DNA of 64,000 nt from Escherichia phage JLBYU08: sequence record OK272482.1; one strand, written 5' to 3'. Numbering within the stretch: the first letter of the stretch is position 1; every line of letters begins with the position of its first letter. The notes beneath the pieces were generated by a model. It ran no database searches. It saw nothing but the letters and a program-made list of their open reading frames with translations, and was not told the origin of the DNA. Position numbers and translations under genes: made by a program. Shown here piece by piece: positions 103-62,247 of this stretch.

Positions 103-408
103 ATGGCTAAATCTAAAGTTGAACTGTTCACCTCTCTTCCTTCTGACACTGCAGAACGTGATCGCCTTCGCAAAACAATCGAAGAACTGGTGGAACTCCA
201 ACTTCAGATTAAAGATCTGAAAGATGCCATCAAGGATATCATTCTTGTTGAGAAGCAGGATCATCTGTATTCTCCTAAATTCATCAAATCTCTGGTGGCT
301 ACCGAGTTCGATATTCGATATGAGGCTGAAAAACGTCGAGCTAAAATCGAAGAAGAGGTTGAGCACATGTCCGAGGCAGACATTCTGTTCAAACGCTCTG
401 TAGAATAA
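103..408 (+). CDS. hypothetical protein, 101 aa, charged/coiled-coil-like
   Basis: ORF with AAGGAG about 9 nt upstream of ATG; followed by hairpin terminator. Confidence 0.6.
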   Translation: MAKSKVELFTSLPSDTAERDRLRKTIEELVELQLQIKDLKDAIKDIILVEKQDHLYSPKFIKSLVATEFDIRYEAEKRRAKIEEEVEHMSEADILFKRSVE

Positions 409-9290: not shown

Positions 9291-9332
9291 GATCATTACT
9301 CCTTTTTGCACTGATTATTTTAACAAGGTTTA

Positions 9333-21200: not shown

Positions 21201-21283
21201 TATGGAATCTCCGATTTTATTTGAACAACATAGAAGGAGACACTATTTTAGCATCCCCTTCTGTAAATTACAATAGGTATTTG

Positions 21284-41290: not shown

Positions 41291-42186
41291 ACCCTCGCAT
41301 AAATTAAACTTGTATCAGTATACTTCTTTAATGGGTAAATATCCTGTCCATAGATGCAATCATTAAACACCTCATCTACCCAAAGGCTACACTTATATCC
41401 CATCATTTCTAAAACACCCATCTCTTCTTCTGTAAACTTATCACCGCTCTTGCAAGATGTCAATACCTCATTCTGAACTCTTGCTACCTCGAAGCGGTTA
41501 TTGGCAATATCGCTATTGGCGATCAAATACTCACCTAGAGGGTGTGCGGCATTAAAGATGCACAGTGGACGGCTGACGTAATAGTCTCCGGGTGTATAAA
41601 AATTGTTGAGGTCTTTCACTAGAACATTCTTATCAGTCACTTCATTTATAACATCATGCATATCGCACATCTTTATATGTTTGAGGATTCCATCCCCCAT
41701 CACAAAATAAAAACTTGCTGAGACACTTTCGGCATAGATCTTACTAGATCCGTTGTAGTTGTATTTTACTCGGATGCTAACGGGGGTTTTTCCTGTCGCG
41801 TTAGCCATCATCCAAAGAAATGGCAGCTCATACTTCTCCTCTGAGGAAACAAAAGGTGAGGTAGCCAGAGATCGAAAACCTCCAGAGAAGTTGAAAGTTA
41901 CAGAACCGCTCCGGCGGTATGATACCGCGTATTCTACTTTTATATCGACGTACCCATTGGAATAGGTGTGTCCTTCATTATCTAAATATGTCCACTTATC
42001 AGACCCAGATACCAATCTACGCTCGATAACCTTCATCACTACAGGAATTAGTGGGTTGGTACAAACCGCTTTTGAAGTAGCTTTATCATCTAAAGCCTCG
42101 TAAATTGCAGAAAGGATGTCCCCAGCTGAAAGATTGGTTGTTATGTCCTGTTTCCACCGCGTACTAAAACTGTTAAGATTTGCCAT
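41287..42186 (-). CDS. hypothetical protein, 299 aa
   Basis: ORF with TAGGAGCA SD; inside the inverted-repeat-bounded segment. Confidence 0.6.
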   Translation of the reverse strand: MANLNSFSTRWKQDITTNLSAGDILSAIYEALDDKATSKAVCTNPLIPVVMKVIERRLVSGSDKWTYLDNEGHTYSNGYVDIKVEYAVSYRRSGSVTFNFSGGFRSLATSPFVSSEEKYELPFLWMMANATGKTPVSIRVKYNYNGSSKIYAESVSASFYFVMGDGILKHIKMCDMHDVINEVTDKNVLVKDLNNFYTPGDYYVSRPLCIFNAAHPLGEYLIANSDIANNRFEVARVQNEVLTSCKSGDKFTEEEMGVLEMMGYKCSLWVDEVFNDCIYGQDIYPLKKYTDTSLIYARV

Positions 42187-42265
42187 AAGTAAGTGCTCCT
42201 ATGTTAGTTTTCTTTCGAATGGGTGCACTATATTGTGGAGTTAGAGTAAAGTCAACACGTTTTTG

Positions 42266-43306
42266 ATGTTGACATCTGTTGAGACAATTGATACGATTTC
42301 TTCACTTACAGAGCACGAGAGACGACTCATGAATCTTGAAAAATATTATACACCAGAAGAGTTAGAGCGCTTGCTCAAAAAATATAGACGCAAACAGAAT
42401 AACGCACGGAAACGAGATATAGAGTTCGACCTGTCATGGGAAGAATACCTCCTATTTGGTAAAAAACTTTTAGGAGATGGAGTATGCGACTATACCCTTA
42501 TACCTTTTGACATGCACACAGATGAAAACGGGCTGGGAAATCCTTTCTACCCATCTCTGGAGCGGATAGATGATGAAGGTCCTTATGCGGTTGATAACTG
42601 TTGTGTGGTGGGATTGAGATGCAACTCTCTAAAGGACTGTCTGGTAGATAAAAAGACTGCAGTCTTGATTAAAGACGAAACTGATCGAAAAATTGTCCAG
42701 CAGATGATGCTCCACCTGAGCGAAGAGCGTATGGAGAAATTGAAAGGTGATTATACTTTTGAAGATTTCATCTTACAATATGGAACGGAAGAGGATAAAC
42801 TAGCACTCTTTGACGAAGAAGAGGAGGAAGATATGCTACCGATGTCTAAAGTTACTTATCGTGCACCCAAGAAGCACATTTCCGACATTGTAAACGAGCC
42901 TATCACAGAAGAGATTGAAGAAATGACGCAACAGGTGCATGAAGAGGAAAAAGAGACTCAGGAGGTCGAAGAGGAGCTTACAGAAGAGGTTCCTGCACTA
43001 CCTGATGATGTTGAGATTGCCAAAGCTTACACTTTCTATTGTCAAACGTTCTACGATGTAGGTATGAAAGTTGATCTGTCGTTCAGCCAATTTAAGAGTT
43101 CGTATATTCGCAAATGCTGTGCTTTAACTGGTGAACGTCTTGGAGCTGGACTTAAACCTCTGTTGGTGACCGACTGGAATAAAGGTTTCACTAAAGGAAA
43201 CTTTATGGTAGTATCTCCAATTATGGAGAAAGCTATGACAGATCTTATGAAGACCACCCGCATGACAATGACCGAGTTGGCAGGTATTTTCAAACACGTT
43301 AAATAA
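42266..43306 (+). CDS. ORF with two tandem copies of a Cys/Asp-rich domain, 346 aa; possibly two in-frame genes, second starting at MSKVTYRA (42842)
   Basis: Both halves carry C-x-(Y/A)-T...(R/T)(I/D)D...G(Y/F)..GN(c/f).V motif; GAGGAGG SD before internal ATGs; no clear SD at annotated start. Confidence 0.5.
   Translation: MLTSVETIDTISSLTEHERRLMNLEKYYTPEELERLLKKYRRKQNNARKRDIEFDLSWEEYLLFGKKLLGDGVCDYTLIPFDMHTDENGLGNPFYPSLERIDDEGPYAVDNCCVVGLRCNSLKDCLVDKKTAVLIKDETDRKIVQQMMLHLSEERMEKLKGDYTFEDFILQYGTEEDKLALFDEEEEEDMLPMSKVTYRAPKKHISDIVNEPITEEIEEMTQQVHEEEKETQEVEEELTEEVPALPDDVEIAKAYTFYCQTFYDVGMKVDLSFSQFKSSYIRKCCALTGERLGAGLKPLLVTDWNKGFTKGNFMVVSPIMEKAMTDLMKTTRMTMTELAGIFKHVK
42837..42865. repeat. 29-bp perfect inverted repeat, right copy
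   Basis: TACCGATGTCTAAAGTTACTTATCGTGCA on plus strand. Confidence 0.85.
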
Positions 43307-43310
43307 TAAC

Positions 43311-43335
43311 AGGGGCCAATGGCCCCTTCTGGAGT
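43311..43335 (+). terminator. possible weak terminator hairpin
   Basis: GGGGCC-AAT-GGCCCC followed by TTCTGGAGTTTT; short loop and interrupted T-run. Confidence 0.35.
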
Positions 43336-43339
43336 TTTA

Positions 43340-44800
43340 ATGGATAGCAGAAGTTCAGAAATCATTGCCTCGCAGAAAGATGATGCCCTGAGAATGTTGC
43401 AGGCTGCACGTATGTATCTCCTTGAAAAGCTGCCGTTCTATGGCACACTACTGTCAGGGTTGCAGTTCGTAGAAAACCACACATGGTGCTCCACCATGGC
43501 AACCGACCATAAACGCATCTATTACAGTCCTGAGTTCATTATGGGATTGGCTGATGAACGCAAGGCTATTCTTAAGGCTTCTCTAACTGACGAGCAGTTT
43601 GAGATGGCTGAAGTTTTCTATTCCCCAAAATCTGTGAAAGAGGTGGCCTTCCTTCTGTCACATGAGGTGGGGCATATTATCTGTGATCACCTAGTCCGTG
43701 GTAAAAGCTTTGAGCCGGAACTGTTCAATATTGCTTGTGATCACGTTATCAACACAGGCCTTGTGGTTGACTTTAGCAAACCTCCTTGTGTTTTCTTCCC
43801 GAAGGGGAAAAGCACTACGTTCGTGAAAGGTAAGCCTTTTGGCTTCTTAGCCAGCTGCTACTGCGACATGAAGTTTCATGGATGGATTGCTGAGAACGTT
43901 TATGCAGTTCTTGATAAGCAAAGAGATCAGAATAACGGTAAAAGTAAGAACGGTAAAGGTGAGAACTCTCAAAGTGATAAGCGACAAACCGATGATCACA
44001 TGAGTGGGAACGGTGGCACCAGTGATAATCTTGGAAAGGCTATGGGGTATGATCAGCCACAACCTGTAATCAGCCAATCTGATAAAGATCAGGCCATGCA
44101 GGACTCTGGTGATATGCTGGAGGCAGCAATGCAAGCGTCCGGAGGCCGTTGCCCTGAGGCGGTGCGTGAGTTTGTCAAGAACAGAGGTAAACCTGTAATC
44201 AACTATATAGACATCATTAAGCAACGCATGTTGTCTAAAAGAAAGGCCGAACTGACCTACAGAAAACCTGGTCGCCGATCTGGGTCTTTGACCAGCACAA
44301 TGCGAAAAGTTGGGGCTATAAACAAGAACCAGCACGTTATTGTTCCTGGTCGTAATCCGGAAAACACTATAGATATTGTGGTGGCTTTAGACGTTTCTGG
44401 CTCGATCTCTCAAAGAACTTTAAAGAAAATGTTCAATGAAATCACCGGATTGTGCAATCTGTATAAAGAGTTTAAGGTTACAATGTTCTGTTGGTCAACT
44501 GAGGTTGGAGAGGTTAAAGTATACACTCGCGGCAACATAGACGAGATGATCAACTATGAGGTCCACTCAACATGGGGCACAACAGCTGCTTGCGTGTTCG
44601 AGCATCTGGATGCCAACATACCTAATGCAAAAGATGTCATCGTCCTGACCGACCTATACTTTGAGCATAACTTTGAACAAAAGGTTGTTGACAACAAGTG
44701 GAAAAAGTACGATACTCTATGGGTCCTCACTGAGGGGTATAATAAAAATTATATCCCGAGCTTTGGGAAAACTGTGGAATTAATCGAGTACGCTAAGTAA
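43340..44800 (+). CDS. putative metallopeptidase (HExxH) plus von Willebrand A domain protein, DUF2201-like, about 486 aa
   Basis: HEVGHIICDH zinc-binding motif in N-terminal half; MIDAS-like VALDVSGSIS in C-terminal half; GGAG SD before internal ATG. Confidence 0.7.
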   Translation: MDSRSSEIIASQKDDALRMLQAARMYLLEKLPFYGTLLSGLQFVENHTWCSTMATDHKRIYYSPEFIMGLADERKAILKASLTDEQFEMAEVFYSPKSVKEVAFLLSHEVGHIICDHLVRGKSFEPELFNIACDHVINTGLVVDFSKPPCVFFPKGKSTTFVKGKPFGFLASCYCDMKFHGWIAENVYAVLDKQRDQNNGKSKNGKGENSQSDKRQTDDHMSGNGGTSDNLGKAMGYDQPQPVISQSDKDQAMQDSGDMLEAAMQASGGRCPEAVREFVKNRGKPVINYIDIIKQRMLSKRKAELTYRKPGRRSGSLTSTMRKVGAINKNQHVIVPGRNPENTIDIVVALDVSGSISQRTLKKMFNEITGLCNLYKEFKVTMFCWSTEVGEVKVYTRGNIDEMINYEVHSTWGTTAACVFEHLDANIPNAKDVIVLTDLYFEHNFEQKVVDNKWKKYDTLWVLTEGYNKNYIPSFGKTVELIEYAK

Positions 44801-44815
44801 GAGAGGAGGTTATTT

Positions 44816-45079
44816 ATGGCAACAGAGTTAAAATTTGCATCAAACCGTAAAACTAAGAAGTATCTGTCCTCAGTAGCTCCAGGCACTGTGGTGATGTTTG
44901 TTGATGAACTTGGGGATGTGAATACAGCACTTGTTGTAAAATCACATCCTGCAAACATATATGTTGGGGTATTTGACCTGTTCAGAAAGGTGTTTGTAGA
45001 ACTACCTCACAGTTTGGTTGTTACAGAAATGGATGCCTGCATAGAAATTCTTGGCGAAGTTATGGTGGAGGAACAATAA
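44816..45079 (+). CDS. small protein, 87 aa; paralogue 1 of a four-gene tandem array
   Basis: Shared pattern MAT..kF.s..k.K.....GtVV...D.......mvvk...fdl...L...kVtE.d..I.iLGE; GAGGAGG SD. Confidence 0.6.
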   Translation: MATELKFASNRKTKKYLSSVAPGTVVMFVDELGDVNTALVVKSHPANIYVGVFDLFRKVFVELPHSLVVTEMDACIEILGEVMVEEQ

Positions 45080-45342
45080 TGGCTACCAGCATTGTATTCA
45101 ATTCTAAGGTGAAGAACAAAAAGCGTGCAGACAGCTTTCCGTGTGGGACCGTGGTAAGTTGCGACGGAGACGGCATTCAAAACATAGTTATGATTGTCAA
45201 AACAGGAGAACATTGTGTGTGGGGGTTCGATTTAGAAAATAATGAGTTGTACGATCTGCCACCAAACATGAAAGTTACAGAGCTTGACACCAAAATTACC
45301 ATCCTTGGAGAGACAAGCTATTCAAAAGAAGGAGGAGAATAA
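45079..45342 (+). CDS. small protein, 87 aa; paralogue 2
   Basis: TAATG coupling; same length and motif pattern. Confidence 0.6.
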   Translation: MATSIVFNSKVKNKKRADSFPCGTVVSCDGDGIQNIVMIVKTGEHCVWGFDLENNELYDLPPNMKVTELDTKITILGETSYSKEGGE

Positions 45343-45605
45343 TGACCACAAAAATCACTATCGCAGAACCGAAAGCTAACACTCAACCTATCGAAAAGTT
45401 TAAGTGCGGTGAGGTGGTAACATTCACACCAGATAATGAAGATGCTAAGATTTTCGCAATGGTCACAGCTGAGTGGATGTGTGACAACACCACACAGGTT
45501 CTGCGTTTTGACACCTATCTTACCGATGAAATCAGGAACGACAAGATTGTGACTGGTGTGGATACTGAGATTGTTTTCTACAAGAGCTTTTTAGAGGGTT
45601 TCTGA
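45342..45605 (+). CDS. small protein, 87 aa; paralogue 3
   Basis: TAATG coupling; same length and motif pattern. Confidence 0.6.
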   Translation: MTTKITIAEPKANTQPIEKFKCGEVVTFTPDNEDAKIFAMVTAEWMCDNTTQVLRFDTYLTDEIRNDKIVTGVDTEIVFYKSFLEGF

Positions 45606-45606
45606 T

Positions 45607-45840
45607 ATGGCAAAAATTCGTAAATTATCTAGCAATCAGGTTGTGAAAGACTTTGAATCTGGAGAGATTCTTTATGTTCGTGATGCAGATGACGAAGGTG
45701 AAGATCTCGTTATGTTGGTGGGGCACGCTGAGGACGGATGCATCCAAGCTGTTTTTCTTGAAACAGCTATGGTGCACTGGATAGAGCTGGACCTGAAAGC
45801 ACGAAAACCTAAAGCAGAAATCCTGATTTACGAAGATTAA
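45607..45840 (+). CDS. small protein, 77 aa; divergent paralogue 4
   Basis: Coupled start; similar size; weaker motif match. Confidence 0.5.
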   Translation: MAKIRKLSSNQVVKDFESGEILYVRDADDEGEDLVMLVGHAEDGCIQAVFLETAMVHWIELDLKARKPKAEILIYED

Positions 45841-45855
45841 TAAAAGGAGAGAGCC

Positions 45856-46305
45856 GTGTTGAGCAAACGTGAATGCGACAGCATTAGCCTGAATTCTTAT
45901 AAGAAACAATGGTTTGGGGTAGAAGTTTGCCGACTGCGGCTAGGCTCCTACCTGAACTTCGTTTATTATGAGAGTGACAGTCGTATCGTTTCTTATGAAG
46001 TGTTCTACACTAAGAACACCTTCGAACTGCGCCGTAAAGTGGATGGCGGGAGAACTACCGCCCAGAATAATTGGGAAACTATTCTGCCTCCAGATGTTAT
46101 AGGAAGCCCCCTGAATGTATCTGAAGATGAAAATCTTATGGTTCATGCTATGATGGGACTTGACAGCTTAGAGCTGGCGATCTATGATATGTCCATAGAA
46201 GCAGTTAAGCTGGACTACATCGAAAACACTTTAGAGGAAGGTATCAAGAAGTTTCTCAGTGAGAAATTAAAAGACCACTTTCATAAGGAGCTATATCTGT
46301 TATGA
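45856..46305 (+). CDS. hypothetical protein, 149 aa, GTG start
   Basis: AAAGGAGAGAG SD before GTG. Confidence 0.55.
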   Translation: MLSKRECDSISLNSYKKQWFGVEVCRLRLGSYLNFVYYESDSRIVSYEVFYTKNTFELRRKVDGGRTTAQNNWETILPPDVIGSPLNVSEDENLMVHAMMGLDSLELAIYDMSIEAVKLDYIENTLEEGIKKFLSEKLKDHFHKELYLL

Positions 46306-46547
46306 AGACCCGTAAAGAACGTAACAAAATTTTACCTGGAGCTCTCGAACACCTGATGAAGTGCAGATCTATTTGGCACTCTGCCAAGGAAGGGCAGAAG
46401 GTGGTTGTGGTTAGTGACAATACCAACCCGTTTGGAGATTATACCACCATGATGGCCCCATATGTCCGTGATGGCGTTGTAGAAGTGGTCCCTTACAACG
46501 GTTTGCATGAACGGCACTTTGAAAGCACTTTGCTAGTGGAGCTATAG
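46302..46547 (+). CDS. hypothetical protein, 81 aa
   Basis: ATGA coupling. Confidence 0.55.
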   Translation: MKTRKERNKILPGALEHLMKCRSIWHSAKEGQKVVVVSDNTNPFGDYTTMMAPYVRDGVVEVVPYNGLHERHFESTLLVEL

Positions 46548-46549
46548 TC

Positions 46550-47116
46550 ATGGCGGTCAATGTGGCTTACAACACAGGAAAGCTTGACAGAGACATTGGG
46601 TGTCTTGTCCTTTCAGATACAGAAGAGTATTGGGGTTATGGGTTGCTGTCAGACCCACACCCGAGCAACCTTGTATCAACAGTGCTATACCGCTACGACC
46701 CTGTGCCAACGGTACACGACAAAGACATTCACGACCTTCGGATCAAGTGTCTGGAAGATCTGCTGAACAATGGTTGCAACGATCTGCGGGTAGCCAAGGA
46801 GAAGCTTACAAACATTCACAAAGAGGAAGTGATGAGTACCCTCAGTAAAAGATCAGTGCACAAAAAGACGATGCTGAACTTTGCAATGGGTATCTACATG
46901 GATGGGTATAAGGGAGGGGATCCGATCCTCAAGCTTCGCTGCCCGACACTGTGGGAAAGAGTGGTTGACAGTAAGGACGGTACTGCCCTGCTCGAACTCC
47001 ACACTGCAGGTTGGATTTGGAGGTATGTAGACGGATACCCTCTGTGGGCATGTGGACCTGGGGAATTTGTTGACAGACCTAGCGCTGTGGTGGACTTACT
47101 ATTGCAGTTTGAATAA
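46550..47116 (+). CDS. hypothetical protein, 188 aa
   Basis: ORF with GGAGCT SD. Confidence 0.6.
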   Translation: MAVNVAYNTGKLDRDIGCLVLSDTEEYWGYGLLSDPHPSNLVSTVLYRYDPVPTVHDKDIHDLRIKCLEDLLNNGCNDLRVAKEKLTNIHKEEVMSTLSKRSVHKKTMLNFAMGIYMDGYKGGDPILKLRCPTLWERVVDSKDGTALLELHTAGWIWRYVDGYPLWACGPGEFVDRPSAVVDLLLQFE

Positions 47117-47173
47117 AAAGGTGAGTTATAAGGTATTCATACACCTACCAACAATACAACAGGAGAGACTAAG

Positions 47174-47449
47174 ATGACGAAAGAAGAGGCCGACGTATTA
47201 GATTTTGCACTAGAGGCTACGCAGGAGGCTTTGGTGTTAGCTTGGAAAATGAACCAGCGTGCTGCAGAATGCAACCGCCGCATCAATGAGATCTTGGGCA
47301 TGTCTATGTATGATTTCACCATGCATGCCGGAGAGATTCCTGAATTAACTGCCGAGATGAATGATCTTGACGATAAAATTAATATCATTCTGAAGACAGC
47401 AGAAACAACTCACCAAACCGCCCGTAAATTTATCAACGAGAAGGTGTGA
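47174..47449 (+). CDS. hypothetical protein, 91 aa
   Basis: ORF with GGAGAGA SD. Confidence 0.55.
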   Translation: MTKEEADVLDFALEATQEALVLAWKMNQRAAECNRRINEILGMSMYDFTMHAGEIPELTAEMNDLDDKINIILKTAETTHQTARKFINEKV

Positions 47450-47918
47450 ATATGGACTACAGCTACTGCGGGGAAGAAGTCCCTTTTAATTACAGCAATC
47501 TTACCACGAGCAATCCATATGAGACTCGCCACGGCACGCACATCATTGCCATCGACTTTGATGGAACGTTTAATGCGAGCCCTTTCATCTTCTCCCGCCT
47601 GATCAGGGATCTGAAGAAGGAGGGGGGTGGACAGTCTACCTTGTGACTTTCCGATTCATTACTCAAGACAATGTAGACATTGAGTATTGGCGCAAGGAGC
47701 TCGATGTTGGTGTGTTCTACACAGGTGGTGTTCAGAAGGCAGCCTACCTGGCGCAGTTTGATATCTACCCAGATATCTGGATTGATGATTCTCCGGCATG
47801 TATTCCGGCTAAGAATCAGTTAGAGTTTGCAATGAAGGAGATTGAGTATAAGTCTGAGGCTAAGCGGAACGGATGGCCCTTTATTATTGAAGATTACCCA
47901 GATCCTGAACCGGAGTAA
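47446..47918 (+). pseudogene. HAD-like phosphatase/nucleotidase gene split into two frames at a G6 run (47622-47627)
   Basis: N-terminal ORF carries HAD motif I (IAIDFDGT); downstream -1 frame carries K and DD motifs (DIWIDDSP); the two frames overlap only across the homopolymer. Confidence 0.5.
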
Positions 47919-47923
47919 GAGCC

Positions 47924-48094
47924 ATGAGGCGAAGATATCATTACCTGATGTGGAAGTTATATCAAAATGCTGCCAAAGCCTATCATACCATGTTTGGCAA
48001 TGACGATCACTACATCATGTTACATCTCACCGCTATTGAGCATCACAATGAGTGGATTCATGCAATCGTGGCAGGTGATAAAGACTTTAAGTAA
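47924..48094 (+). CDS. hypothetical small protein, 56 aa, His-rich
   Basis: ORF below track cutoff with GGAGTAAGAG SD. Confidence 0.35.
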   Translation: MRRRYHYLMWKLYQNAAKAYHTMFGNDDHYIMLHLTAIEHHNEWIHAIVAGDKDFK

Positions 48095-55030: not shown

Positions 55031-56776
55031 TTAACGTTGTGCAATTACTACGTCTACGATATCACCAACACCACAATACGTTAATTGCAGCAAGGTAACA
55101 CTGTTAGCCTTGTTGTTAATAACAGGTGTTGCCGACAGGATAGCATACTTATCGTGCAAAGTCACGTTGTGACCTACAGCATCCTGAATTACATAGATAA
55201 CCGCAGTGAATGGATAAGGTTTATCTTCCGCTGATGTCCCAGGCCACTGTCCTATTGTAAAATCCCCTTTCGCGTGAACAACATACATACTGGCCTGCCC
55301 GTTAGGTGTCCATGTCCCACTGGACGCGTCAACCTCCTCTAAATCAAAATCTACCTTTCCTGCGTGGAAAGTAGGGGCAGTAATGGTTTTACCCGCCTCA
55401 ATTTCTTGAGAGGTGGTTATCTTGCCACTGGAGTTAATGCCATTACAGACAAAGTTGACATTAGAGAAGTCAGGCAACCACCCAGTCACCGTGCCGGATA
55501 TTTCAAGGTTGTGAACAGAGGTGGTGCCAGTCCCTGCTGCGTTTAAACTGACATCTCCATTTACCTGCAAGTTGCGGGTAACGTTGCAGTTTTCAGAGTT
55601 TGCAGTTGTTGCAGTTAAAGTGGTTGTTGTCAGCTCGGTAATTACACCTTTGTTGGCTGTAAGCCCTTCTCCTTCAAAAGTTGCACGCTCATTGACTCTT
55701 AAGGTATTCAGAGCTATGTTTTGGATAGAGGCCGTACCTCGAATAACTACAGACCCGCCAACCTCCAAATCGCCATTTATCAATGCATCACCAGTGCTTT
55801 CAATATAGCTAGGGTAGATCATGGTGCCATCGACAGAGTATGTTATCCCTGTAACGGTACCTGTCACCTCAAGGTTCTTAACCCTGGTGGTCCCATCTAC
55901 CTGCAATGTCGGTTCGGTTGCTGCCTTCATGGCATTACCACGAATGTACACGTAGTCAAAAAAGTTATTACCCAGACCATCAAAATGCACATCGTTATTA
56001 TTAGCCACTGGTTTCCCAGAAGTTATAGTGTCAGCTATAACCCTGTGGGTGGACACTTCATGAGGTTGCAGCTCTGTACTTCTCCAGTCTGCATGCTTAG
56101 GATCGCTCCACGCAAAAGTAAGTGTAGAAGTATTTGCCGTGAGGATTAGATTCCTAAAGCGTGCAGTAGAATCTGCCCCATTAACAGGTCCATGTAAGGT
56201 AAGGGTGCCACCAACTATAGTGTTAGCGAGTTCTGTAAGACCTTTTACCACCAAAGACCCTACAGTAACTTTCATCCCCTCCATGGCTTTAAATATGCTA
56301 TCAACATAGTCAACAACAAACTCTGTGTTTGCTATGGACTCTGACTTATCGTCCATTGGAGGTGTAGGTACTCGTGGGTCACCTTCGAACCTCGGGCTGT
56401 TAAGTTTTGCGTAGTATTTTGCCATTACTGCAGAGTCGGTATATAATCTCCAGTTTGGAGATTGTGAAGGATCTGCTGGCATTCTAACCGGGTTAGATTT
56501 TGATGCTGCGGGAGCGTACCACCACTGAGGGCCTGTGTCCCCTTTAAACTCGTACAGCTGGTTAAAAACTGTTGTGGATGCACCATACGCCCAAGGGATC
56601 GGTGGCGTTTTAAAATAAAGGTTGTCAAGCATGGCTTTTCGTACCGTAGGGATGGTGGTCCCATCCTCTACGACAACTTCATCCACAGCGTTACCGTTGA
56701 CAACCAAGTGCAAACGTTCAGAATCAACAATTACTTGATCTACCGCCTGCTCAAAGCTTGTCATGTCTTGCGCCAT
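55031..56776 (-). CDS. tail fibre or tail spike-like protein, 581 aa
   Basis: Thr/Gly/Asn-rich repetitive beta-type composition; position in tail module. Confidence 0.6.
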   Translation of the reverse strand: MAQDMTSFEQAVDQVIVDSERLHLVVNGNAVDEVVVEDGTTIPTVRKAMLDNLYFKTPPIPWAYGASTTVFNQLYEFKGDTGPQWWYAPAASKSNPVRMPADPSQSPNWRLYTDSAVMAKYYAKLNSPRFEGDPRVPTPPMDDKSESIANTEFVVDYVDSIFKAMEGMKVTVGSLVVKGLTELANTIVGGTLTLHGPVNGADSTARFRNLILTANTSTLTFAWSDPKHADWRSTELQPHEVSTHRVIADTITSGKPVANNNDVHFDGLGNNFFDYVYIRGNAMKAATEPTLQVDGTTRVKNLEVTGTVTGITYSVDGTMIYPSYIESTGDALINGDLEVGGSVVIRGTASIQNIALNTLRVNERATFEGEGLTANKGVITELTTTTLTATTANSENCNVTRNLQVNGDVSLNAAGTGTTSVHNLEISGTVTGWLPDFSNVNFVCNGINSSGKITTSQEIEAGKTITAPTFHAGKVDFDLEEVDASSGTWTPNGQASMYVVHAKGDFTIGQWPGTSAEDKPYPFTAVIYVIQDAVGHNVTLHDKYAILSATPVINNKANSVTLLQLTYCGVGDIVDVVIAQR

Positions 56777-56785
56777 GATTTCTCC

Positions 56786-57052
56786 TTAAGCTTTTTGCTC
56801 TTCGTTTTTAACGTGGTCAGGGTGCTGGCAACCCCATCGGAGCGAGATGAATTTGCTAATAAGCTGGGGGCAAGCTACTGAAGGCGCGTATATCCACGCA
56901 TACCATTCAGGAAGCGTATCATTATACCCCATATGAATAAACACCCCAGTCATCACCGCCATGCCTATGTTCGACCATAGCTTATTTTGGGACACTTTCG
57001 TAGGGTCATCAGATGCCGCAACCAGTCCCCATAAAAACTGAGTTAGTTTCAT
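56786..57052 (-). CDS. small membrane protein, 88 aa (holin-like features: hydrophobic core, charged C-terminus)
   Basis: Hydrophobic segments and charged tail; function not established. Confidence 0.45.
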   Translation of the reverse strand: MKLTQFLWGLVAASDDPTKVSQNKLWSNIGMAVMTGVFIHMGYNDTLPEWYAWIYAPSVACPQLISKFISLRWGCQHPDHVKNEEQKA

Positions 57053-57063
57053 TTACCCTCTTT

Positions 57064-58110
57064 TTAAGCATAAGATATAGTGATCCATTGACCATTTACA
57101 AGTTTTTGGATAGCACCTGTCCAGTAATCACCTTGATAAGGGTGTTTATAAGCGTAGTTACCAGAGCACATCACATGTCCAGGGTAGACTCTTGACTCTC
57201 TGTAGGTGGTTTTGAAACGGTTTGCTATCCTTACATCATCAACCCCTCTGCTGGGCATAGGGATAGTAAGGTTACCACTACTGTCTGCGCCGTTACCATT
57301 TACCCTGCGGACCACGTTTCTTCCGCCAACTGTTGCATATTGACCCCTGACTGTTTCATCGTTACAATCAACTCTTCCACCTATTTGAGCGCTTCCGCAG
57401 GATTGTTGTCCGTTAACAGTGGCTCTTGGTATCGTGACCGCATTGGCATTTGCAGAGTAACTTTTTGCATCGTTGCATTCAAGATTTCCTTGGATAGCCA
57501 GTCTTGCACGGTTGGCAGTTATAGCATTGAGCTTCATAGCCGAAAACACAGGCTGCCCACCAGAAGGTTGAAATCTCCAACGGAACCCGTCTATTTGGTG
57601 AGAAGGATCATCAAGGTCTGTGCCGTCAGCACCACCGATGTTGTCCATAATCCAGAAGTCCATCGTCGTCTTGTCTGGAGTTATGGTGGTATATATTGCC
57701 GCATTGTCTGTTGACGCAGATGCAAACTCGATTCTTTGAATGCCTAAAGTTTGAGTCTGAGTCATTATGTCTCCAGACTTGTCAACATACAGATCGTCCA
57801 TTTCTTCAGGCGAGTATACATTGAGAACTTGACGTGCAGCAGCTTTGTCTGGAACGTCTGCTAGATTATTAGTGACCCTTAAGAATCTATTATCCCATCC
57901 TGGGACAACATCTTCTGTTAAATGCTTTAACCACGCAGAAAGCATGTGAAGTTCAAAGTTAACAACTTCACATGCCACTCTTTGTGTCATATCCCAACCT
58001 TTCAATCTCTCTTCTTTTTTTGGTTGAGACTTATTCAACTCTCCCGTATTTTCAAGCACAACATCCTGATTGGCCCAAATATCAAGAGGGATAACTGGTT
58101 TAGTCATCAC
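57064..58110 (-). CDS. tail fibre / receptor-binding protein, paralogue B, 348 aa
   Basis: N-terminus (PLDIWANQDVVLENT) and C-terminus (QKLVNGQWITISYA) shared with 59122..60162; central part divergent. Confidence 0.7.
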   Translation of the reverse strand: MMTKPVIPLDIWANQDVVLENTGELNKSQPKKEERLKGWDMTQRVACEVVNFELHMLSAWLKHLTEDVVPGWDNRFLRVTNNLADVPDKAAARQVLNVYSPEEMDDLYVDKSGDIMTQTQTLGIQRIEFASASTDNAAIYTTITPDKTTMDFWIMDNIGGADGTDLDDPSHQIDGFRWRFQPSGGQPVFSAMKLNAITANRARLAIQGNLECNDAKSYSANANAVTIPRATVNGQQSCGSAQIGGRVDCNDETVRGQYATVGGRNVVRRVNGNGADSSGNLTIPMPSRGVDDVRIANRFKTTYRESRVYPGHVMCSGNYAYKHPYQGDYWTGAIQKLVNGQWITISYA

Positions 58111-58196
58111 GTTCTCCTGAGAAAATTCCTTAGGACTATTTTAACACTTTAGGGAACAAAATGCAAGAACGGAGTCCTTTCCGTTCTGACCTTTGT

Positions 58197-58511
58197 TTAC
58201 CTTTTACTATGCTCTACGAGCATGTGCAAAATCTTTTGTACATCGGCTCTGATGCCGGAGACATCTGTCCTGACATCCTGCTTAAGGTCGTTAATATCGG
58301 CCTCTAGCTTGCTTAACCGGGTCTCTATAACGGAATCAAGTTTATCTTTTGTAACCATACTGTTTTTCACTAAGATGAGGTCTTTCTCCAGCTCTTCCAA
58401 CCTCTTGGAAATGCCTTTCCATTTGGTGTGCCACTGGTTGAAAGCCCATACACAGATCGGGACAACGGTACCCATGCAGATACCGTACAATGCCGCCAAA
58501 TCCAACTCCAC
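58197..58511 (-). CDS. membrane-anchored coiled-coil protein, 104 aa
   Basis: N-terminal hydrophobic helix followed by heptad-like charged region. Confidence 0.5.
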   Translation of the reverse strand: MELDLAALYGICMGTVVPICVWAFNQWHTKWKGISKRLEELEKDLILVKNSMVTKDKLDSVIETRLSKLEADINDLKQDVRTDVSGIRADVQKILHMLVEHSKR

Positions 58512-58522
58512 AACACCTCCTC

Positions 58523-59107
58523 TTAGAGGGTAGGTCGCTCCGGGAAGAAAATGTCAGGGGCTTTAGATGTATCTATTTCAAGAAGTTTTACCCTGTACAT
58601 TTTCAAATCTCTGATGTTACGTTTCTGGTCATCAGTAAGATCATATTCAAGGTCAATCATGTCTTGATAGGCACCAATTCTAGCAGTAGCCCAAGCAAGT
58701 TCTGTCTCTATGACACCCTCTGCCTGTTGAACAAAGAATTCATTGTCTGTGACAAATTCATCACCAACTAAACGCAAAGCGTCGTGGTGAAGCATAATGT
58801 TTTCTGGTACCTCTTCTTTTTTGGCGATAACCACACGAAGACCTGGAGCAGGCCATAAGGCATCAGGTTCTTCTGTAGATGTCTTAAGAATTCCCTTCTC
58901 GTCAACAAGTAGGAAGATACACCCTGGATTTTCTTGTCGTAATGTTCGTGACTGCACATACCAATCACCATCATCATTACGTAAAAAATACCCAGTGTAT
59001 GCGGTGTAATCCTCGACCTCTTGAGGGGTCAGCTCCTTGGTTTCCTTGTTGGAGTGGTATTCGCCAGATCCCGGTTGGTAAAGTTTAAACTCTTGAAGTA
59101 TTTTCAT
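58523..59107 (-). CDS. tail fibre assembly chaperone (Tfa-like), 194 aa
   Basis: C-terminal ...YRVKLLEIDTSKAPDIFFPERP resembles the conserved Tfa C-terminal motif; immediately downstream of a fibre gene. Confidence 0.6.
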   Translation of the reverse strand: MKILQEFKLYQPGSGEYHSNKETKELTPQEVEDYTAYTGYFLRNDDGDWYVQSRTLRQENPGCIFLLVDEKGILKTSTEEPDALWPAPGLRVVIAKKEEVPENIMLHHDALRLVGDEFVTDNEFFVQQAEGVIETELAWATARIGAYQDMIDLEYDLTDDQKRNIRDLKMYRVKLLEIDTSKAPDIFFPERPTL

Positions 59108-59121
59108 GCTAGTCCTCCGAT

Positions 59122-60162
59122 CTATGCATAATTAACAGTGATCCATTGACCATTTACAAGTTTTTGTAAAGGTCCTGCCCAGTAGGTTGAACCACGCATC
59201 TCTTTTTTGTCACCGAAACGCCAGCCTGTGACAACGTATCCGTTGCGGATTGGAGATTCAGAAACGCCGTCCACAAGTCTTGCACCGATTCTGATGTCTT
59301 GCACACCTGTCTGCGGGATAGTGATCGTTACATCACCGTTACCGTTAGCCGTCACTCCATTCACGGAGCGCACCACATTTCTGTTACCGACAACACAGTG
59401 CTGGCTTCTTACAACCATACTGTCACAACTTGCACCACCATTAACATATACTGACCCAGCCGTCAACTGACTGGCCACATTACAGTTGGTGAATGTTGCT
59501 GTATTGCTGATAGTAAGGTTATTGCACCTCATGTTATCGACAACTTCAACATTGCCTACCACTTTCAACAGCGCACGATTAGCCGTGATCGCGTTAAGGT
59601 ACATCAAAGTGAACTCTGGATTAATATCCGGCTGAGTTGGCTGGAATCTCCAACGAAACGCATCTACTGTAGATGTACCACCATCATCAAACGACCCGGT
59701 ATTATCACTTAACCCAAAGTCGAGGGTTGTCTTATCTGGGCCAATAGTTGTCTCTATCCAAGCCTTATCTGTCTCGGCAGCTTTAAAGTTGATACGTTGC
59801 AACCCCAAGGGGCCTGTCATTGTATCACCTGTAACTTTTACATACCTGGCGTCTGCCTCTTCCTTAGTGATAATCCCAAGGTTTCTACGGGCAACAGGAA
59901 TGTTCAAAAGATCGCTCAAGTTATTATCACGTACCAGATAACGGCCTTCTTGAGCTGGGATCTGCTCGTCAGCAATGTATTTTGCCCAAGTCCCGAGCAT
60001 ATTGAAAATATAGTTAAGTTCTTCACATGAGGGCTTTTGACCAAGATCCCAACCTTTTCTCCACAAATCATCAATCGGGCGTAGCCTGTTCTGTCTGTGG
60101 GTGTTAGGCAGAACCTGATCCTCCTCTGCCCAAATCTCTAATGGAAAACTAGGTTTTGACAT
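59122..60162 (-). CDS. tail fibre / receptor-binding protein, paralogue A, 346 aa
   Basis: Shared termini with 57064..58110 (ends QKLVNGQWITVNYA). Confidence 0.7.
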   Translation of the reverse strand: MSKPSFPLEIWAEEDQVLPNTHRQNRLRPIDDLWRKGWDLGQKPSCEELNYIFNMLGTWAKYIADEQIPAQEGRYLVRDNNLSDLLNIPVARRNLGIITKEEADARYVKVTGDTMTGPLGLQRINFKAAETDKAWIETTIGPDKTTLDFGLSDNTGSFDDGGTSTVDAFRWRFQPTQPDINPEFTLMYLNAITANRALLKVVGNVEVVDNMRCNNLTISNTATFTNCNVASQLTAGSVYVNGGASCDSMVVRSQHCVVGNRNVVRSVNGVTANGNGDVTITIPQTGVQDIRIGARLVDGVSESPIRNGYVVTGWRFGDKKEMRGSTYWAGPLQKLVNGQWITVNYA

Positions 60163-60174
60163 TTTATCTCCTGA

Positions 60175-62247
60175 TTATGAGAAGTCTGGCGGGACAACAT
60201 CTTCTACATACCCTTTCAGAGCAACCTGCCCCATATGAAGCACGGTAGAATCTCTAGCGGTAACAGTGATGCTGTCAGACATTACTTGCGGGTATGCCCA
60301 CACATACTGTTTTACCTCAGGATATCTATACTCTATAGTTGCCATGTTTCCGCAAATACATCTCCATAAAAATTCTTGGTAATTCCTGGTTGGGTCGTAA
60401 CCATATACCGGAGCAAGCTCTTTACTAGGAACGAACCCTGCAAGGTATTGTATTTCAGACGGTTGCCAACCTAACTTAACGATAGGTATGTTTACAGACT
60501 CTTTTGCCTTTTCAATACCTCCCTGCATCACCCAATCGTAGCACTCGGTGCAGAAGAAATCAAGAGCACCTGCTTCCTTTTTATATTGGTCAGCAAGGTT
60601 AAGCTTTTGCGTAAGCTCGGTTTCCATAATGGTTGGGAAAAACAGCAGAGCTGTCATCTGAGCTGATGCAGCGTGTGCCTTTATTGCCTTTGAAATAGCC
60701 GCAATACGAGCGCCAAGCTTACCACGACAAAATGCTACATACTTATCGTAAACACCGCCAGTTTTAGGATCGTCAATAGTCCCAATATCTAATGCATACT
60801 CGCCTGTCTCATCATAAAACGCCTGTTTTGTAGGGTAATCATAAATACAAGGTCTACGAGTATCGGTATTGTACCACCACCACGGTTCACCAACCTGCAT
60901 AATCACTGGCAGGTTGTTTCTCATAGCGGCTGATGCAAAATTCTTAAATACTGCAGTAAGGAAATTCATACCCTCTTCAATGGTTGGAGACAGGAGGTAG
61001 CTACAAGGTGTATACCCTGTTTTAGCGTAGTTATCGTTCCAGTCTCTTTGGGTCCATTCCAACGGGCAGGCATCGCTGAAAAGCTCAAAACTTACAGATT
61101 GCATAACGTCGAAGTTATGTCGTTTGGCATTGTACATAAAATCATCATGCCATTTATAAGCTGCAGCGTTTAGCGCTCCTGTTCTGTTTATAGACCATTG
61201 GGTTCCTGACCATGTGTAGTCATAATAATGACTCATACCAACATAATGGTTTATGGTTCCGGTATAGCCCAGACGCTTGATATTGTTCAACACCCTTAAA
61301 GGAGACACGTTCCACATATCGTCATATGCGGTGCAGATCCCAACATCGTGCTCTCTCACCTGGATATTGTTAAGTTGCATCATTTTCCAGCCTGTGTCTG
61401 GCTGAAGCAGATCTAGGCGCAACTCACACTCTACATTTTCCGTTCTCGGGTCTGTGCTATTACTTACCCAGTCTTTAGGCATAAGCGGTATTAAAATCCT
61501 TCTCACCTGCCGAGGATCAACACCCATCATGTTGTTGTTCTGGTCCATCCCGACGCAGTCCTCAAAATCAATATGAATTTCTGCAACATTCTTATCCTCT
61601 GAGATGCTGACAGCATATTGAGCTAAAGGAACATAGATGATTGTGCCATCAACAAGGTCTACAGTCATAATCATCTTTTCAGGAGTGGAGAAGTTGCTGG
61701 CGTTGGTTATTGACATTCTGAACCAAAGCTTGGTGTTTCTCATCTCATAGTGATCATCAAACCCAATACCGAAATGGTCATACTTGTCAACTGTTTCCCA
61801 AATGCACCCAGCCATACCTCCATATGTTCTTGACACTAAACGGTTAATACAACAGTTGTTATCTGCAACAATACAGGTACTTTCAGTCTGCTGAGTGGTT
61901 GTAACCCAATATCTTGGGTGAAACATTCTCTCCTCAACAGTATCCCAAGATATCCTGTCAAGATTCTCATCTGAAACTATTGTACATTTCGCCCTTTGTG
62001 TTCCAATCATCACCCCTTGAGATTTTGATGAAAACTCCATAAAGAAGCTTCTTGGCAACCTGTTGGGTAATTTGTCAACAATTTCCACGGGGATCTCAAT
62101 ACTGGTTGCCCCAACTGGGATAGTTACATCGCCCTCAACATGATCATAATCCCTACCAGGAACGGCAGTATCCTGAACTGTTCGGTAATGAAACCGTGCA
62201 GCCATTGTAGAGTAATCACGGTAAGGTTTAAAAACAGCTGTTGCCAT
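60175..62247 (-). CDS. tail or baseplate structural protein, 690 aa
   Basis: Large ORF in the tail module; TAATG-style coupling to upstream gene. Confidence 0.65.
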   Translation of the reverse strand: MATAVFKPYRDYSTMAARFHYRTVQDTAVPGRDYDHVEGDVTIPVGATSIEIPVEIVDKLPNRLPRSFFMEFSSKSQGVMIGTQRAKCTIVSDENLDRISWDTVEERMFHPRYWVTTTQQTESTCIVADNNCCINRLVSRTYGGMAGCIWETVDKYDHFGIGFDDHYEMRNTKLWFRMSITNASNFSTPEKMIMTVDLVDGTIIYVPLAQYAVSISEDKNVAEIHIDFEDCVGMDQNNNMMGVDPRQVRRILIPLMPKDWVSNSTDPRTENVECELRLDLLQPDTGWKMMQLNNIQVREHDVGICTAYDDMWNVSPLRVLNNIKRLGYTGTINHYVGMSHYYDYTWSGTQWSINRTGALNAAAYKWHDDFMYNAKRHNFDVMQSVSFELFSDACPLEWTQRDWNDNYAKTGYTPCSYLLSPTIEEGMNFLTAVFKNFASAAMRNNLPVIMQVGEPWWWYNTDTRRPCIYDYPTKQAFYDETGEYALDIGTIDDPKTGGVYDKYVAFCRGKLGARIAAISKAIKAHAASAQMTALLFFPTIMETELTQKLNLADQYKKEAGALDFFCTECYDWVMQGGIEKAKESVNIPIVKLGWQPSEIQYLAGFVPSKELAPVYGYDPTRNYQEFLWRCICGNMATIEYRYPEVKQYVWAYPQVMSDSITVTARDSTVLHMGQVALKGYVEDVVPPDFS

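What the first reader, a model, noticed from the sequence alone, without database searches (positions are those of the whole stretch)
57064..60162. Two tail-fibre paralogues with conserved termini and swapped central regions, separated by a Tfa-like chaperone
The 348- and 346-aa proteins share N-terminal (PL(D/E)IWA...) and C-terminal (QKLVNGQWIT...YA) segments but differ in the middle. This is the pattern expected for alternative receptor-binding proteins attached to the same virion site, and could broaden host range.
Basis: partly seen in the sequence, partly recalled or inferred. Interest (0 to 1): 0.5.

Follow-up and report, generated by a model that had tools for sequence, protein, structure and literature searches.

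The report
Two known rV5 short tail fibres
The window is an rV5-like coliphage, and the two ~347-residue proteins are its already described pair of Mu-type short tail fibre paralogues (rV5 gp33 and gp30) with one shared assembly chaperone; they are related along their whole length, not swapped in the middle.

Summary
The two ORFs exist at the stated coordinates. They are paralogues: 43% identity over the full length, E 2e-93. The locus is 99.8% identical to Escherichia phage rV5_ev146. The proteins are rV5 gp33 (A, 59122-60162) and gp30 (B, 57064-58107, probably starting at the ATG, giving 347 aa).

This pair was described in 2013 (42.3% identity, "two LPS chemotypes"). In 2021 it was described again as [quoted passage not shown]. 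It is therefore already known.

The "swapped central region" is not supported: homology is continuous. The gap between the two genes holds a Caudo_TAP chaperone and also a 104-aa membrane/coiled-coil gene.

Details added here:
- A is the positional orthologue of the single fibre in related genera.
- B is a lineage-specific duplicate. It sits where relatives carry a 157-aa membrane-protein gene.
- B lies behind its own conserved promoter-like element.
- B evolves about 4x faster than A but is still under purifying selection (dN/dS 0.08).
- B has lost the baseplate-anchor motif (RPIDDLWxKGWD...) that every other family member sampled here keeps.
- The distal tips of A and B differ in this lineage, but are near-identical in a divergent two-fibre lineage.

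So "same virion site" is doubtful and untested. Interest is low.

The parts
59122..60162 (-). Short tail fibre paralogue A (orthologue of rV5 gp33), 346 aa. It is the positional and closest orthologue of the single short tail fibre of related genera.
   Evidence: ORF. At least 98.6% identical (tblastn) in the Vequintavirus rows listed. rV5 annotation. 45-48% identical to the single fibre of Av-05 and Seunavirus, against 37-39% for B. phrog_4465 E 5e-171.
59893..60162 (-). A, residues 1-90: N-terminal baseplate-anchor domain carrying the family-wide motif RPIDDLWRKGWDLGQKPSCEELNY.
   Evidence: phmmer to phiTE short tail fibre 9cuy residues 1-111, E 1.2e-19. Family profile E 4e-35. In phiTE, residues 3-92 are modelled on wedge 1 (PMC11972413).
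59125..59328 (-). A, residues 279-346: distal Mu GpS-type tip (putative receptor-binding domain that also docks the chaperone).
   Evidence: phmmer to 5yvq_A residues 440-501, E 1.8e-5. Profile to Mu S residues 438-503, E 5.7e-14, and to S' 8ju3. Foldseek top hit 5yvq_A, E 4.3e-6.
58523..59107 (-). Tail fibre assembly protein (Tfa; orthologue of rV5 gp32), 194 aa. It is the only one in the 64-kb window.
   Evidence: Pfam Caudo_TAP E 9e-12. phrog_136 E 2.2e-36. tblastn of the window finds no second copy.
58197..58511 (-). 104-aa protein (orthologue of rV5 gp31) with an N-terminal hydrophobic segment and a charged, heptad-like (coiled-coil-like) remainder. Function unknown. It is conserved after the Tfa gene in single-fibre relatives too.
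   Evidence: ORF. Hydropathy. phrog_5345, unknown function. Orthologues in Av-05, R7 and TH18.
58166..58187 (-). Terminator-like hairpin just after the 104-aa gene.
   Evidence: Scan. RNA fold -16 kcal/mol, z -2.6. The hairpin is weak in L007 and L006, so it may be specific to this lineage.
58138..58166 (-). Promoter-like element TTGCAT-N17-TAAAAT with a TGn extended -10, upstream of paralogue B. It corresponds to the putative late promoter P030 of rV5.
   Evidence: Sequence. TGNTAAAATA match at 58137-58146. Both boxes are invariant in an otherwise divergent spacer across the window, L007 and L006. rV5 Table S4 lists P030. Not tested experimentally.
57064..58107 (-). Short tail fibre paralogue B (orthologue of rV5 gp30), 347 aa from ATG 58107. 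It is the lineage-specific, faster-evolving duplicate.
   Evidence: ORF. Start codon. 95-99% identical in 115 phage records. dN/dS 0.081 against 0.023 for A. phrog_4465 E 2e-165.
57856..58107 (-). B, residues 1-84: diverged anchor domain with QPKKEERLKGWDMTQRVACEVVNFE in place of the family motif.
   Evidence: phmmer to 9cuy residues 1-83, only E 1.6e-9. The B-clade-specific motif is conserved among B orthologues. B forms a long separate branch in the N-terminal tree.
57067..57267 (-). B, residues 281-347: distal tip. It is the same module type as A's tip, but only 30% identical over alignment columns 301-340.
   Evidence: In the tip tree, window B and L007 B form their own long branch (100% bootstrap).
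57065..57126 (-). 62-nt box at the 3' end of B, 84% identical to the 3' end of A. This is the only stretch of DNA-level similarity between the paralogues that BLASTN detects.
   Evidence: Synonymous divergence pS is 0.29-0.33 here against 0.53-1.1 elsewhere. 11 of 13 conserved residues use identical codons, against 38 of 113 in the rest of the alignment.
59123..59184 (-). Matching 62-nt box at the 3' end of A.
56786..57052 (-). 88-aa gene (orthologue of rV5 gp29; its PHROG family is named 'membrane protein') directly downstream of B. Context only.
   Evidence: phrog_1322. Orthologues in single-fibre relatives.
55031..56776 (-). 581-aa tail fibre protein (orthologue of rV5 gp28). Context only. 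It may share a transcription unit with B, because the rV5 paper lists terminator t028 just downstream of gp28.
   Evidence: phrog_4549. Pfam Phage_phiTE_241_N/C on the orthologues. Terminator list.

Best explanation
The locus encodes two separately maintained short tail fibres of the Mu GpS type. They belong to an rV5-like Vequintavirus and share one Tfa chaperone.

Shown:
- Each protein has three parts. The first ~90 residues are homologous to the wedge-binding anchor of the phiTE short tail fibre. A shaft follows, carrying the 'NLxDxxxxxxAR.NL' fibre motif. The last ~65 residues form a distal tip homologous to Mu GpS/S'.
- A (gp33) is the ancestral, positional orthologue of the single fibre of sister genera.
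- B (gp30) arose by duplication in the common ancestor of at least three divergent two-fibre lineages. It now occupies the slot where single-fibre relatives have a 157-aa membrane-protein gene.
- B has a conserved promoter-like element of its own.
- Both genes are under strong purifying selection.
- B evolves faster and has remodelled both its anchor motif and, in this lineage, the loops of its tip.

Inferred:
- Each protein forms homotrimers, folded from the C-terminus with the help of the single Tfa (gp32). Shared use of that chaperone would explain why the last ~20 residues stay conserved and co-vary between A and B within each genome.
- A docks on the baseplate wedge like phiTE STF and phi92 gp147, and mediates binding to the LPS core.
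- B is a second fibre with a changed docking interface and a different tip. Its expression is set independently. It gives a second binding specificity or geometry.
- Whether B uses a different baseplate site or competes for A's site is not known.
For: Identity of the phage and genes:
- megablast 99.8% to rV5_ev146; 113 records cover at least 80% of the query.
- Annotations as short tail fiber, chaperone and short tail fiber.

Paralogy:
- BLASTP E 2e-93.

Domain homologies:
- 9cuy anchor, 9zd7 repeat motif, 5yvq Mu S and 8ju3 S'.
- Foldseek 5yvq_A, E 4.3e-6.

Chaperone:
-; a single copy in the window.

Synteny and the replaced 157-aa gene:
-.

Two-fibre architecture in divergent lineages:
-.

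Origin by duplication:
- A and B are sister clades: 100% bootstrap full length, 99% for the middle region.

Anchor motif:
- Loss confined to the B clade.

Tips:
- Tip discordance between lineages, and L006 A and B tips 88% identical.

Selection:
- dN/dS 0.023 for A and 0.081 for B across six Vequintavirus genomes.

Promoter-like element:
-.

3' ends:
- Low synonymous divergence.
- C-termini co-vary within each genome: YA/YA in the window against TL/TL in L006.

Literature:
- Mu Tfa stays bound to the distal fibre (PMC9608196).
- phi92 gp147 is fibre III, docked on wedge protein gp145 (PMC13450770).
- The LL12 terminal receptor lies in the LPS outer core (PMC8594841; PMC7229145).
Against: - No experiment shows that either protein, or both, is in the virion. 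The rV5 MS table as held here lists 19 proteins and none of 346/347 aa, although the paper's text names gp30, gp32 and gp33.
- No receptor has been assigned to either paralogue.
- The AlphaFold monomer model is poor (pLDDT 60), so domain boundaries rest on sequence homology.
- The Tfa has no significant sequence match to the crystallised Mu Tfa domain. Its use by both fibres is inferred.
- The promoter is a conserved motif only. The hairpin is strong only in this lineage.
- BASEL reported little allelic variation in either paralogue among Vequintavirus isolates, and a uniform dependence on waaG and waaC. This gives no phenotypic sign of two specificities.
Confidence: 0.6

Rival explanations
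1. A and B are alternative receptor-binding fibres that compete for the same six docking sites on the wedge. Virions would then carry mixtures, or be a population mosaic, which broadens host range.
For: - Both keep the first ~12 residues and the invariant anchor positions P4, P7, W11, A12, L18, N25, P29, G37, D39, E47, N50 and W59.
- Both still match the phiTE anchor.
- The wedge protein is ~495-497 aa in both single-fibre and two-fibre phages according to the annotations. There is therefore no obvious extra docking domain.
Against: - The motif conserved across the whole family, including phiTE, is specifically replaced in all B orthologues. The replacement is itself conserved among them. That pattern fits a new interface under its own constraint better than a shared one.
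- B has separate transcription signals.
- In L006 the two tips are nearly the same, so alternation of receptors is not the general reason the duplicate is kept.
Confidence: 0.25
2. A and B co-assemble into heterotrimeric fibres, so the pair encodes one fibre rather than two.
For: - They share a C-terminal ~20 residues and a single chaperone that could nucleate mixed trimers.
- Their lengths are similar.
Against: - Only 43% identity, with clade-constant indels in the shaft (2 residues near position 118, 4 near 160, 2 near 187). These would put chains out of register.
- Single-copy relatives build the fibre from one gene.
- Each gene appears to have its own transcription unit.
Confidence: 0.05
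3. B is a redundant or decaying duplicate, or a non-virion protein, with no role in adsorption.
For: - B evolves about 4x faster than A at non-synonymous sites.
- B has lost the family anchor motif.
- No 346/347-aa protein appears in the rV5 MS table as held.
Against: - dN/dS of 0.081 indicates strong purifying selection.
- The ORF is intact in 116 phage records and in lineages whose synonymous sites are saturated.
- The B-specific motifs are themselves conserved.
- The same MS table also lacks A, so absence from it is uninformative.
Confidence: 0.05

Closest known systems
rV5 gp30 / gp33 with gp32 (Kropinski et al. 2013, PMC3606486), also called the 'two paralogous short tail fibers and a tail fiber chaperone' of Vequintavirinae sensu stricto (Maffei et al. 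2021, PMC8594841, S5D Fig)
   Same: These are the same genes: 98.8% protein identity to rV5 gp30 and the same gene order. The published 42.3% identity matches the 43% measured here. The published homology to Mu GpS/GpU is reproduced.
   Different: Nothing material differs. This report adds evolutionary detail: the origin of the duplicate, the loss of the anchor motif, B's own promoter-like element and the tip discordance between lineages.
Phage Mu tail fibre GpS/GpS' with chaperone GpU/GpU' (PDB 5YVQ, 8JU3)
   Same: The distal domain is homologous (profile E 5.7e-14). Part of the shaft is homologous too (profile positions 75-191 to Mu S residues 150-261). A Caudo_TAP chaperone gene lies directly downstream of fibre A.
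   Different: Mu alternates two C-termini by inverting the G segment. Here two complete genes lie on the same strand with no flanking inverted repeats. There is one chaperone for two fibres. The N-terminal anchor is of the phiTE/phi92 type, not Mu's.
Short tail fibre of Pectobacterium phage phiTE (PDB 9CUY) and fibre III (gp147) of phi92
   Same: The N-terminal ~90 residues are homologous (A: E 1.2e-19). The last ~20 residues are also homologous. phi92 gp147 aligns to B over 99% of its length. In those phages this fibre docks on the wedge and points downward.
   Different: Those phages have one such fibre. The phiTE shaft is a coiled coil with Ig domains. In the Phapecoctavirus fibre compared here, BLASTP aligns only the two ends to A. 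Paralogue B has lost the anchor motif that phiTE and A share.
T4 gp12 short tail fibre
   Same: The functional label is the same: a short, LPS-core-directed fibre thought to mediate irreversible binding. The rV5 paper reported HHpred similarity to 1PDI.
   Different: No gp12 chain was recovered by sequence or profile search of the PDB at E <= 1 or 0.1, or by Foldseek among the 50 matches listed. The chaperone system also differs: Tfa here, gp57A in T4.

Membership tests
Mu GpS-type tail fibre | C-terminal distal domain homologous to Mu GpS residues ~438-503 | tested here: met
   A alone: E 1.8e-5. Family profile: E 5.7e-14 to 5yvq_A and 8e-6 to S' 8ju3. Foldseek 5yvq_A, E 4.3e-6, probability 1.00. 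B alone does not reach significance against 5yvq, but it is 43% identical to A throughout.
Mu GpS-type tail fibre | Caudo_TAP (Tfa/GpU-like) chaperone gene immediately downstream | tested here: met
   Met for A: the Tfa gene lies at 58523-59107. Not met for B: the gene after B is an 88-aa protein of the PHROG family 'membrane protein', and the window has no second Tfa. B would have to use gp32 in trans.
Mu GpS-type tail fibre | Homotrimeric fibre with the chaperone retained at the tip | not testable with these tools
   Only monomer prediction was available (pLDDT 60). Retention of Tfa in Mu virions is from the literature.
phiTE/phi92-type wedge-anchored short tail fibre | N-terminal ~90-residue anchor with the motif (R/S/K)PI(D/N/A)DL(W/L)xKG(W/Y)DxGxKPxxExxNY | tested here: met
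   Met for A (E 1.2e-19; motif present). B keeps the scaffold positions (E 1.6e-9), but the motif is replaced in all B orthologues. For B this feature is only partly met.
Caudo_TAP tail fibre assembly protein (the 'Tfa-like chaperone') | Pfam PF02413 above the gathering score | tested here: met
   45.7 bits against a cut-off of 22.1, residues 121-192. phrog_136 E 2.2e-36 over the full length. There is no sequence match to the crystallised N-terminal domain of Mu Tfa. This is expected, because that domain is variable.
Invertible-segment alternative tail fibres (Mu G, P1 C) | Inverted repeats flanking alternative C-terminal exons, plus a site-specific invertase | tested here: not met
   Both genes are complete and on the same strand. 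The only inverted repeats are chance-level pairs of 14-18 nt.
T4 gp12 short tail fibre | Sequence or fold homology to the gp12 receptor-binding domain | tested here: not met
   No gp12 chain appears, or among the 50 Foldseek matches listed. The published HHpred hit was not reproduced with the tools used here.

The most novel reading that the evidence does not exclude
Paralogue B is not an alternative occupant of A's site. It is a neofunctionalised fibre whose remodelled N-terminal anchor docks on a different partner, either another wedge surface or another fibre protein. rV5-like virions would then carry two distinct rings of Mu-type short fibres (12 trimers), expressed from separate late transcription units. 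In some lineages the two rings would have the same tip; in this lineage the tips have diverged.
Probability: 0.3. Interest if true: 0.45.

Novelty: already known. Interest (0 to 1): 0.18.

Why it matters
rV5-like phages are among the most commonly isolated coliphages and are candidates for therapy and biocontrol. [quoted passage not shown] The paralogue pair itself is textbook-level for this group.

The practical value of this re-analysis is as follows:
- It corrects the 'swapped centre' reading.
- It flags that virion presence of both fibres is not clearly documented.
- It points to B's N-terminal anchor, rather than only its tip, as the part to test when the rV5 baseplate is solved or when the fibres are engineered.

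Tried and rejected
1. Swapped or unrelated central module. Rejected: identity is continuous, and the middle-region tree puts A and B as sisters. Conserved ends around a highly diverged centre do occur between genera. For example, with the Phapecoctavirus fibre, BLASTP aligns only A residues 1-76 and 287-345.

2. B as a truncated or extended relative of the 157-aa gene it replaces. Rejected: that protein is very hydrophobic (probably a polytopic membrane protein) and has no similarity to the fibres.

3. Recent gene conversion making the L006 tips identical. Not supported as recent: DNA identity there is only 75% and pS is about 0.4. An old conversion or retention of the ancestral tip both remain possible.

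4. Virion proteomics from the rV5 paper. Peptide strings from A, B and Tfa are absent from the supplement, and no 346/347-aa locus is listed. It therefore could not be used as evidence either way.

5. Other proteomic papers did not cover these genes. The O177 phage paper has no MS. The Septuagintavirus W70 paper concerns a different fibre type.

6. AlphaFold2 monomer of A. Low confidence (pLDDT 60). Only the Mu fibre hit was usable. A second model was not run because monomers of intertwined trimers are uninformative.

7. Terminator between the two transcription units. The hairpin is convincing only in this lineage.

8. Invertible-segment mechanism. Rejected.

9. Match of the Tfa to the solved Mu Tfa. 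None found.
Full report
**What is there**

The region 56.7-60.3 kb of the window is 99.8% identical to Escherichia phage rV5_ev146. It matches 116 phage records at 90% identity or more, nearly all Vequintavirus. All genes are on the minus strand.

In transcription order the genes are:
- a 690-aa N4-gp65-like fibre protein (60175-62247);
- paralogue A (59122-60162, 346 aa);
- a Caudo_TAP chaperone (58523-59107, 194 aa);
- a 104-aa protein with an N-terminal hydrophobic segment (58197-58511);
- an 89-bp spacer;
- paralogue B (57064-58107/58110);
- an 88-aa gene whose PHROG family is named 'membrane protein' (56786-57052);
- a 581-aa fibre protein (55031-56776).

In rV5 these are gp34 to gp28. 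The BASEL annotation calls the two paralogues 'short tail fiber protein' and the gene after A 'tail fiber chaperone'.

**The observation**

The two proteins are clearly paralogous: 150/352 identities, E 2e-93, aligned end to end.

The centre is not swapped. In 30-residue windows the identity is highest in the middle of the protein (0.5-0.63). The lows are around columns 41-100, 211-260 and 301-340.

The spacer between the two genes contains two genes, not only the chaperone.

The B start is better placed at the ATG at 58107. Annotated genomes use that start. A divergent orthologue has only that ATG. With it, the two N-termini align residue for residue.

**What the proteins are**

- Both fall in phrog_4465 'tail fiber protein'.
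- Against solved structures, residues 1-108 of A match the short tail fibre of Pectobacterium phage phiTE (9cuy, E 1.2e-19). B matches it more weakly (E 1.6e-9).
- In phiTE, residues 3-92 were modelled by cryo-EM as the globular joint bound to wedge protein 1 (PMC11972413).
- A profile of 33 family members matches four PDB sequences:
  - 9cuy, E 4e-35;
  - the repeated 'NLaDv..kaaAR.NL' motif of another short tail fibre (9zd7);
  - Mu GpS, both in the shaft (profile positions 75-191 to Mu S 150-261) and in the distal domain (279-345 to 438-503, E 5.7e-14);
  - Mu S' (8ju3).
- An AlphaFold2 monomer of A is poor (pLDDT 60). Its only significant Foldseek match is the Mu fibre-chaperone complex 5yvq_A (E 4.3e-6).
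- The chaperone is supported by Pfam (45.7 bits against a cut-off of 22.1) and by PHROG 136. It is the only copy in the window.

**This is already published**

- Kropinski et al. [quoted passage not shown]
- Maffei et al. [quoted passage not shown] They also wrote that these show little allelic variation and relate to the single short fibre of phi92-like phages.

**Origin of the second copy**

Single-fibre relatives have a common gene order: fibre, Tfa, 104-aa gene, a 157-aa very hydrophobic (membrane-type) protein, an ~88-aa gene, then the 581-aa fibre. This holds for Avunavirus Av-05, a Seunavirus-like Salmonella phage and phage TH18. A Phapecoctavirus has a single fibre followed by Tfa, but different downstream genes. 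In the window, B sits exactly where the 157-aa gene is in those three phages.

A is closer to the single fibres than B is (45-48% against 37-39% identity).

Two divergent, uncultured lineages recovered from public assemblies have the same two-fibre layout:
- L007: A 87% and B 78% identical to the window.
- L006: A 73% and B 49% identical to the window.

Neighbour-joining trees place the A clade and the B clade as sisters, with 100% bootstrap for the full length and 99% for the middle region. B is therefore a duplicate made in the common ancestor of these lineages, after they split from the single-fibre genera.

**How the copies differ**

1. Anchor. Every family member sampled keeps a motif like RPIDDLWxKGWDxGxKPxxEExNY. 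This includes A, the single-copy homologues down to 37% identity, and phiTE. All B orthologues instead carry QPxK(E/D)xRxxGWDxxQ(R/K)xAxExxNFE, and that version is conserved among them. In the N-terminal tree, B is a long separate branch.

2. Tip. In the window and in L007, the tips of A and B are only 30% identical over columns 301-340. In L006 they are 88% identical there, and the L006 B tip groups with the A tips (87% and 83% bootstrap). Across the family the tip is clearly a swappable module. For example, Av-05 and TH18 are 84% identical by BLASTP but carry different tip types.

3. Rate. Among six Vequintavirus genomes, dN/dS is 0.023 for A and 0.081 for B. B's dN is four times A's. Both genes are strongly constrained.

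4. Expression signals. The spacer upstream of B has a hairpin (-16 kcal/mol, z -2.6; weak in the other lineages). It also has TTGCAT-N17-TAAAAT preceded by TG. Both boxes are invariant across three lineages whose spacer is otherwise divergent. The rV5 authors listed this site as putative late promoter P030.

5. 3' ends. Synonymous sites between A and B are saturated everywhere except the last ~21 codons.
   - There pS is 0.29-0.33, the minimum of all sliding windows.
   - 11 of 13 conserved residues use the same codon, against 38 of 113 in the rest of the alignment.
   - The uncorrected binomial P is about 2e-5.
   - This is the only stretch that BLASTN detects.
   - The extreme C-termini also co-vary by genome...YA in both copies here and in L007...TL in both copies in L006.
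   - I read this as shared constraint from the one chaperone, or as local gene conversion. The data do not separate the two.

**Mechanism**

Shown: the two genes are homologous fibres with a recognisable anchor, shaft and Mu-type tip. There is one Tfa. Both are under purifying selection. B has separate conserved upstream signals, a remodelled anchor and a remodelled tip.

Inferred from Mu, phiTE and phi92:
- Each protein forms a homotrimer whose folding starts at the C-terminus with gp32, which may stay on the tip.
- A docks on the wedge and binds the LPS core. This would be consistent with the dependence of LL12 and the BASEL phages on waaG and waaC.
- B is a second fibre with another specificity or geometry.

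Heterotrimers are unlikely, because clade-constant indels in the shaft would break the register.

The question of same site or different site is open.

**Caveat on virion presence**

[quoted passage not shown] Its MS table as held here has 19 proteins. It contains no 346/347-aa locus and no peptide from A, B or Tfa that I searched for. Its gene table marks gp34, but not gp30 or gp33, as having MS evidence.

**Verdict**

This is a real feature, correctly located and partly mis-described, and already known. The added evolutionary detail is incremental.

Noticed in passing
window 57064-58107, compared with L002:5949-6422, L003:5997-6470 and L005:6020-6493: Single-fibre relatives (Av-05, a Seunavirus-like phage, TH18) carry a conserved 157-aa, very hydrophobic (probably polytopic membrane) protein (phrog_7451, unknown function) exactly where rV5-like phages carry paralogue B. 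Three small genes of membrane-protein type (104 aa, 157 aa and ~88 aa) sit inside this tail-fibre locus in that group. Their role is unknown.
   Followed up: partly
PMC3606486: main text compared with Additional files 3 and 5: The rV5 paper's text says gp30, gp32 and gp33 were detected by proteomics. Its MS table as held lists 19 proteins, none of 346/347 or 194 aa. Its gene table does not flag these genes as having MS evidence.
   Followed up: yes
search results: Between 16 and 21 GenBank records named 'Campylobacter phage' (host C. jejuni, e.g. MG065635, MG065647, MG065672) are about 98-99% identical to this E. coli Vequintavirus locus. Others match phi92-like phages. This looks like mislabelled or contaminant phage genomes.
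   Followed up: no
L005 (TH18) compared with L002 (Av-05) fibre genes; also P0015, P0028, P0033: The Av-05 and TH18 fibres are 84% identical overall (BLASTP) but carry completely different distal tips. The TH18 tip groups with P0028 and P0033 at 100% bootstrap. This is a clean example of tip-module exchange in this family, bounded by the conserved GRNVVRxVNG...ADGNGN box and the terminal IQKLVNGxW box.
   Followed up: partly
L004:4001-5032 (Phapecoctavirus anhysbys): With this single fibre, BLASTP aligns only A residues 1-76 (38% identity) and 287-345 (59% identity). 'Conserved ends with a highly diverged centre' therefore does occur between genera. tblastn of A against phi92-like genomes shows the same two-piece pattern. 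It is not what separates the two paralogues in the window.
   Followed up: partly
window 287-344 of protein A (nt 59131-59304), compared with ~52-kb Salmonella/Escherichia myophages (SE13, rivia, CF2, SPLA2): The tip of A is 58-60% identical to the tail fibre C-terminus of these otherwise unrelated ~52-kb phages. SE13 belongs to the Rosemountvirus/Loughboroughvirus group according to PMC7432712. This indicates horizontal spread of the tip module.
   Followed up: no
window 9316-9325, 21244-21253, 31810-31819 and 58137-58146 (all minus strand): The extended -10-like motif TGNTAAAATA occurs four times, all on the minus strand. About 0.8 matches are expected by chance, and 2 of 100 shuffles reach four. 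Only the last site was examined.
   Followed up: partly
window 60175-62247: The 690-aa protein upstream of A has Calx-beta, NCTSP_N and NCTSP TIM-barrel domains (N4 gp65-like non-contractile tail sheath protein, E 4e-80). A 2026 preprint links the homologous deacetylase-domain fibre protein of Vequintavirus and phi92-like phages (exemplified by phi92 gp142) to binding of the NGR polysaccharide.
   Followed up: no
window ~42000-48000: GC skew turns positive (+0.10 to +0.17) over about 6 kb in an otherwise negative-skew window. This coincides with a block of plus-strand genes between the two minus-strand structural blocks, as seen in the CarlMeissner annotation.
   Followed up: no
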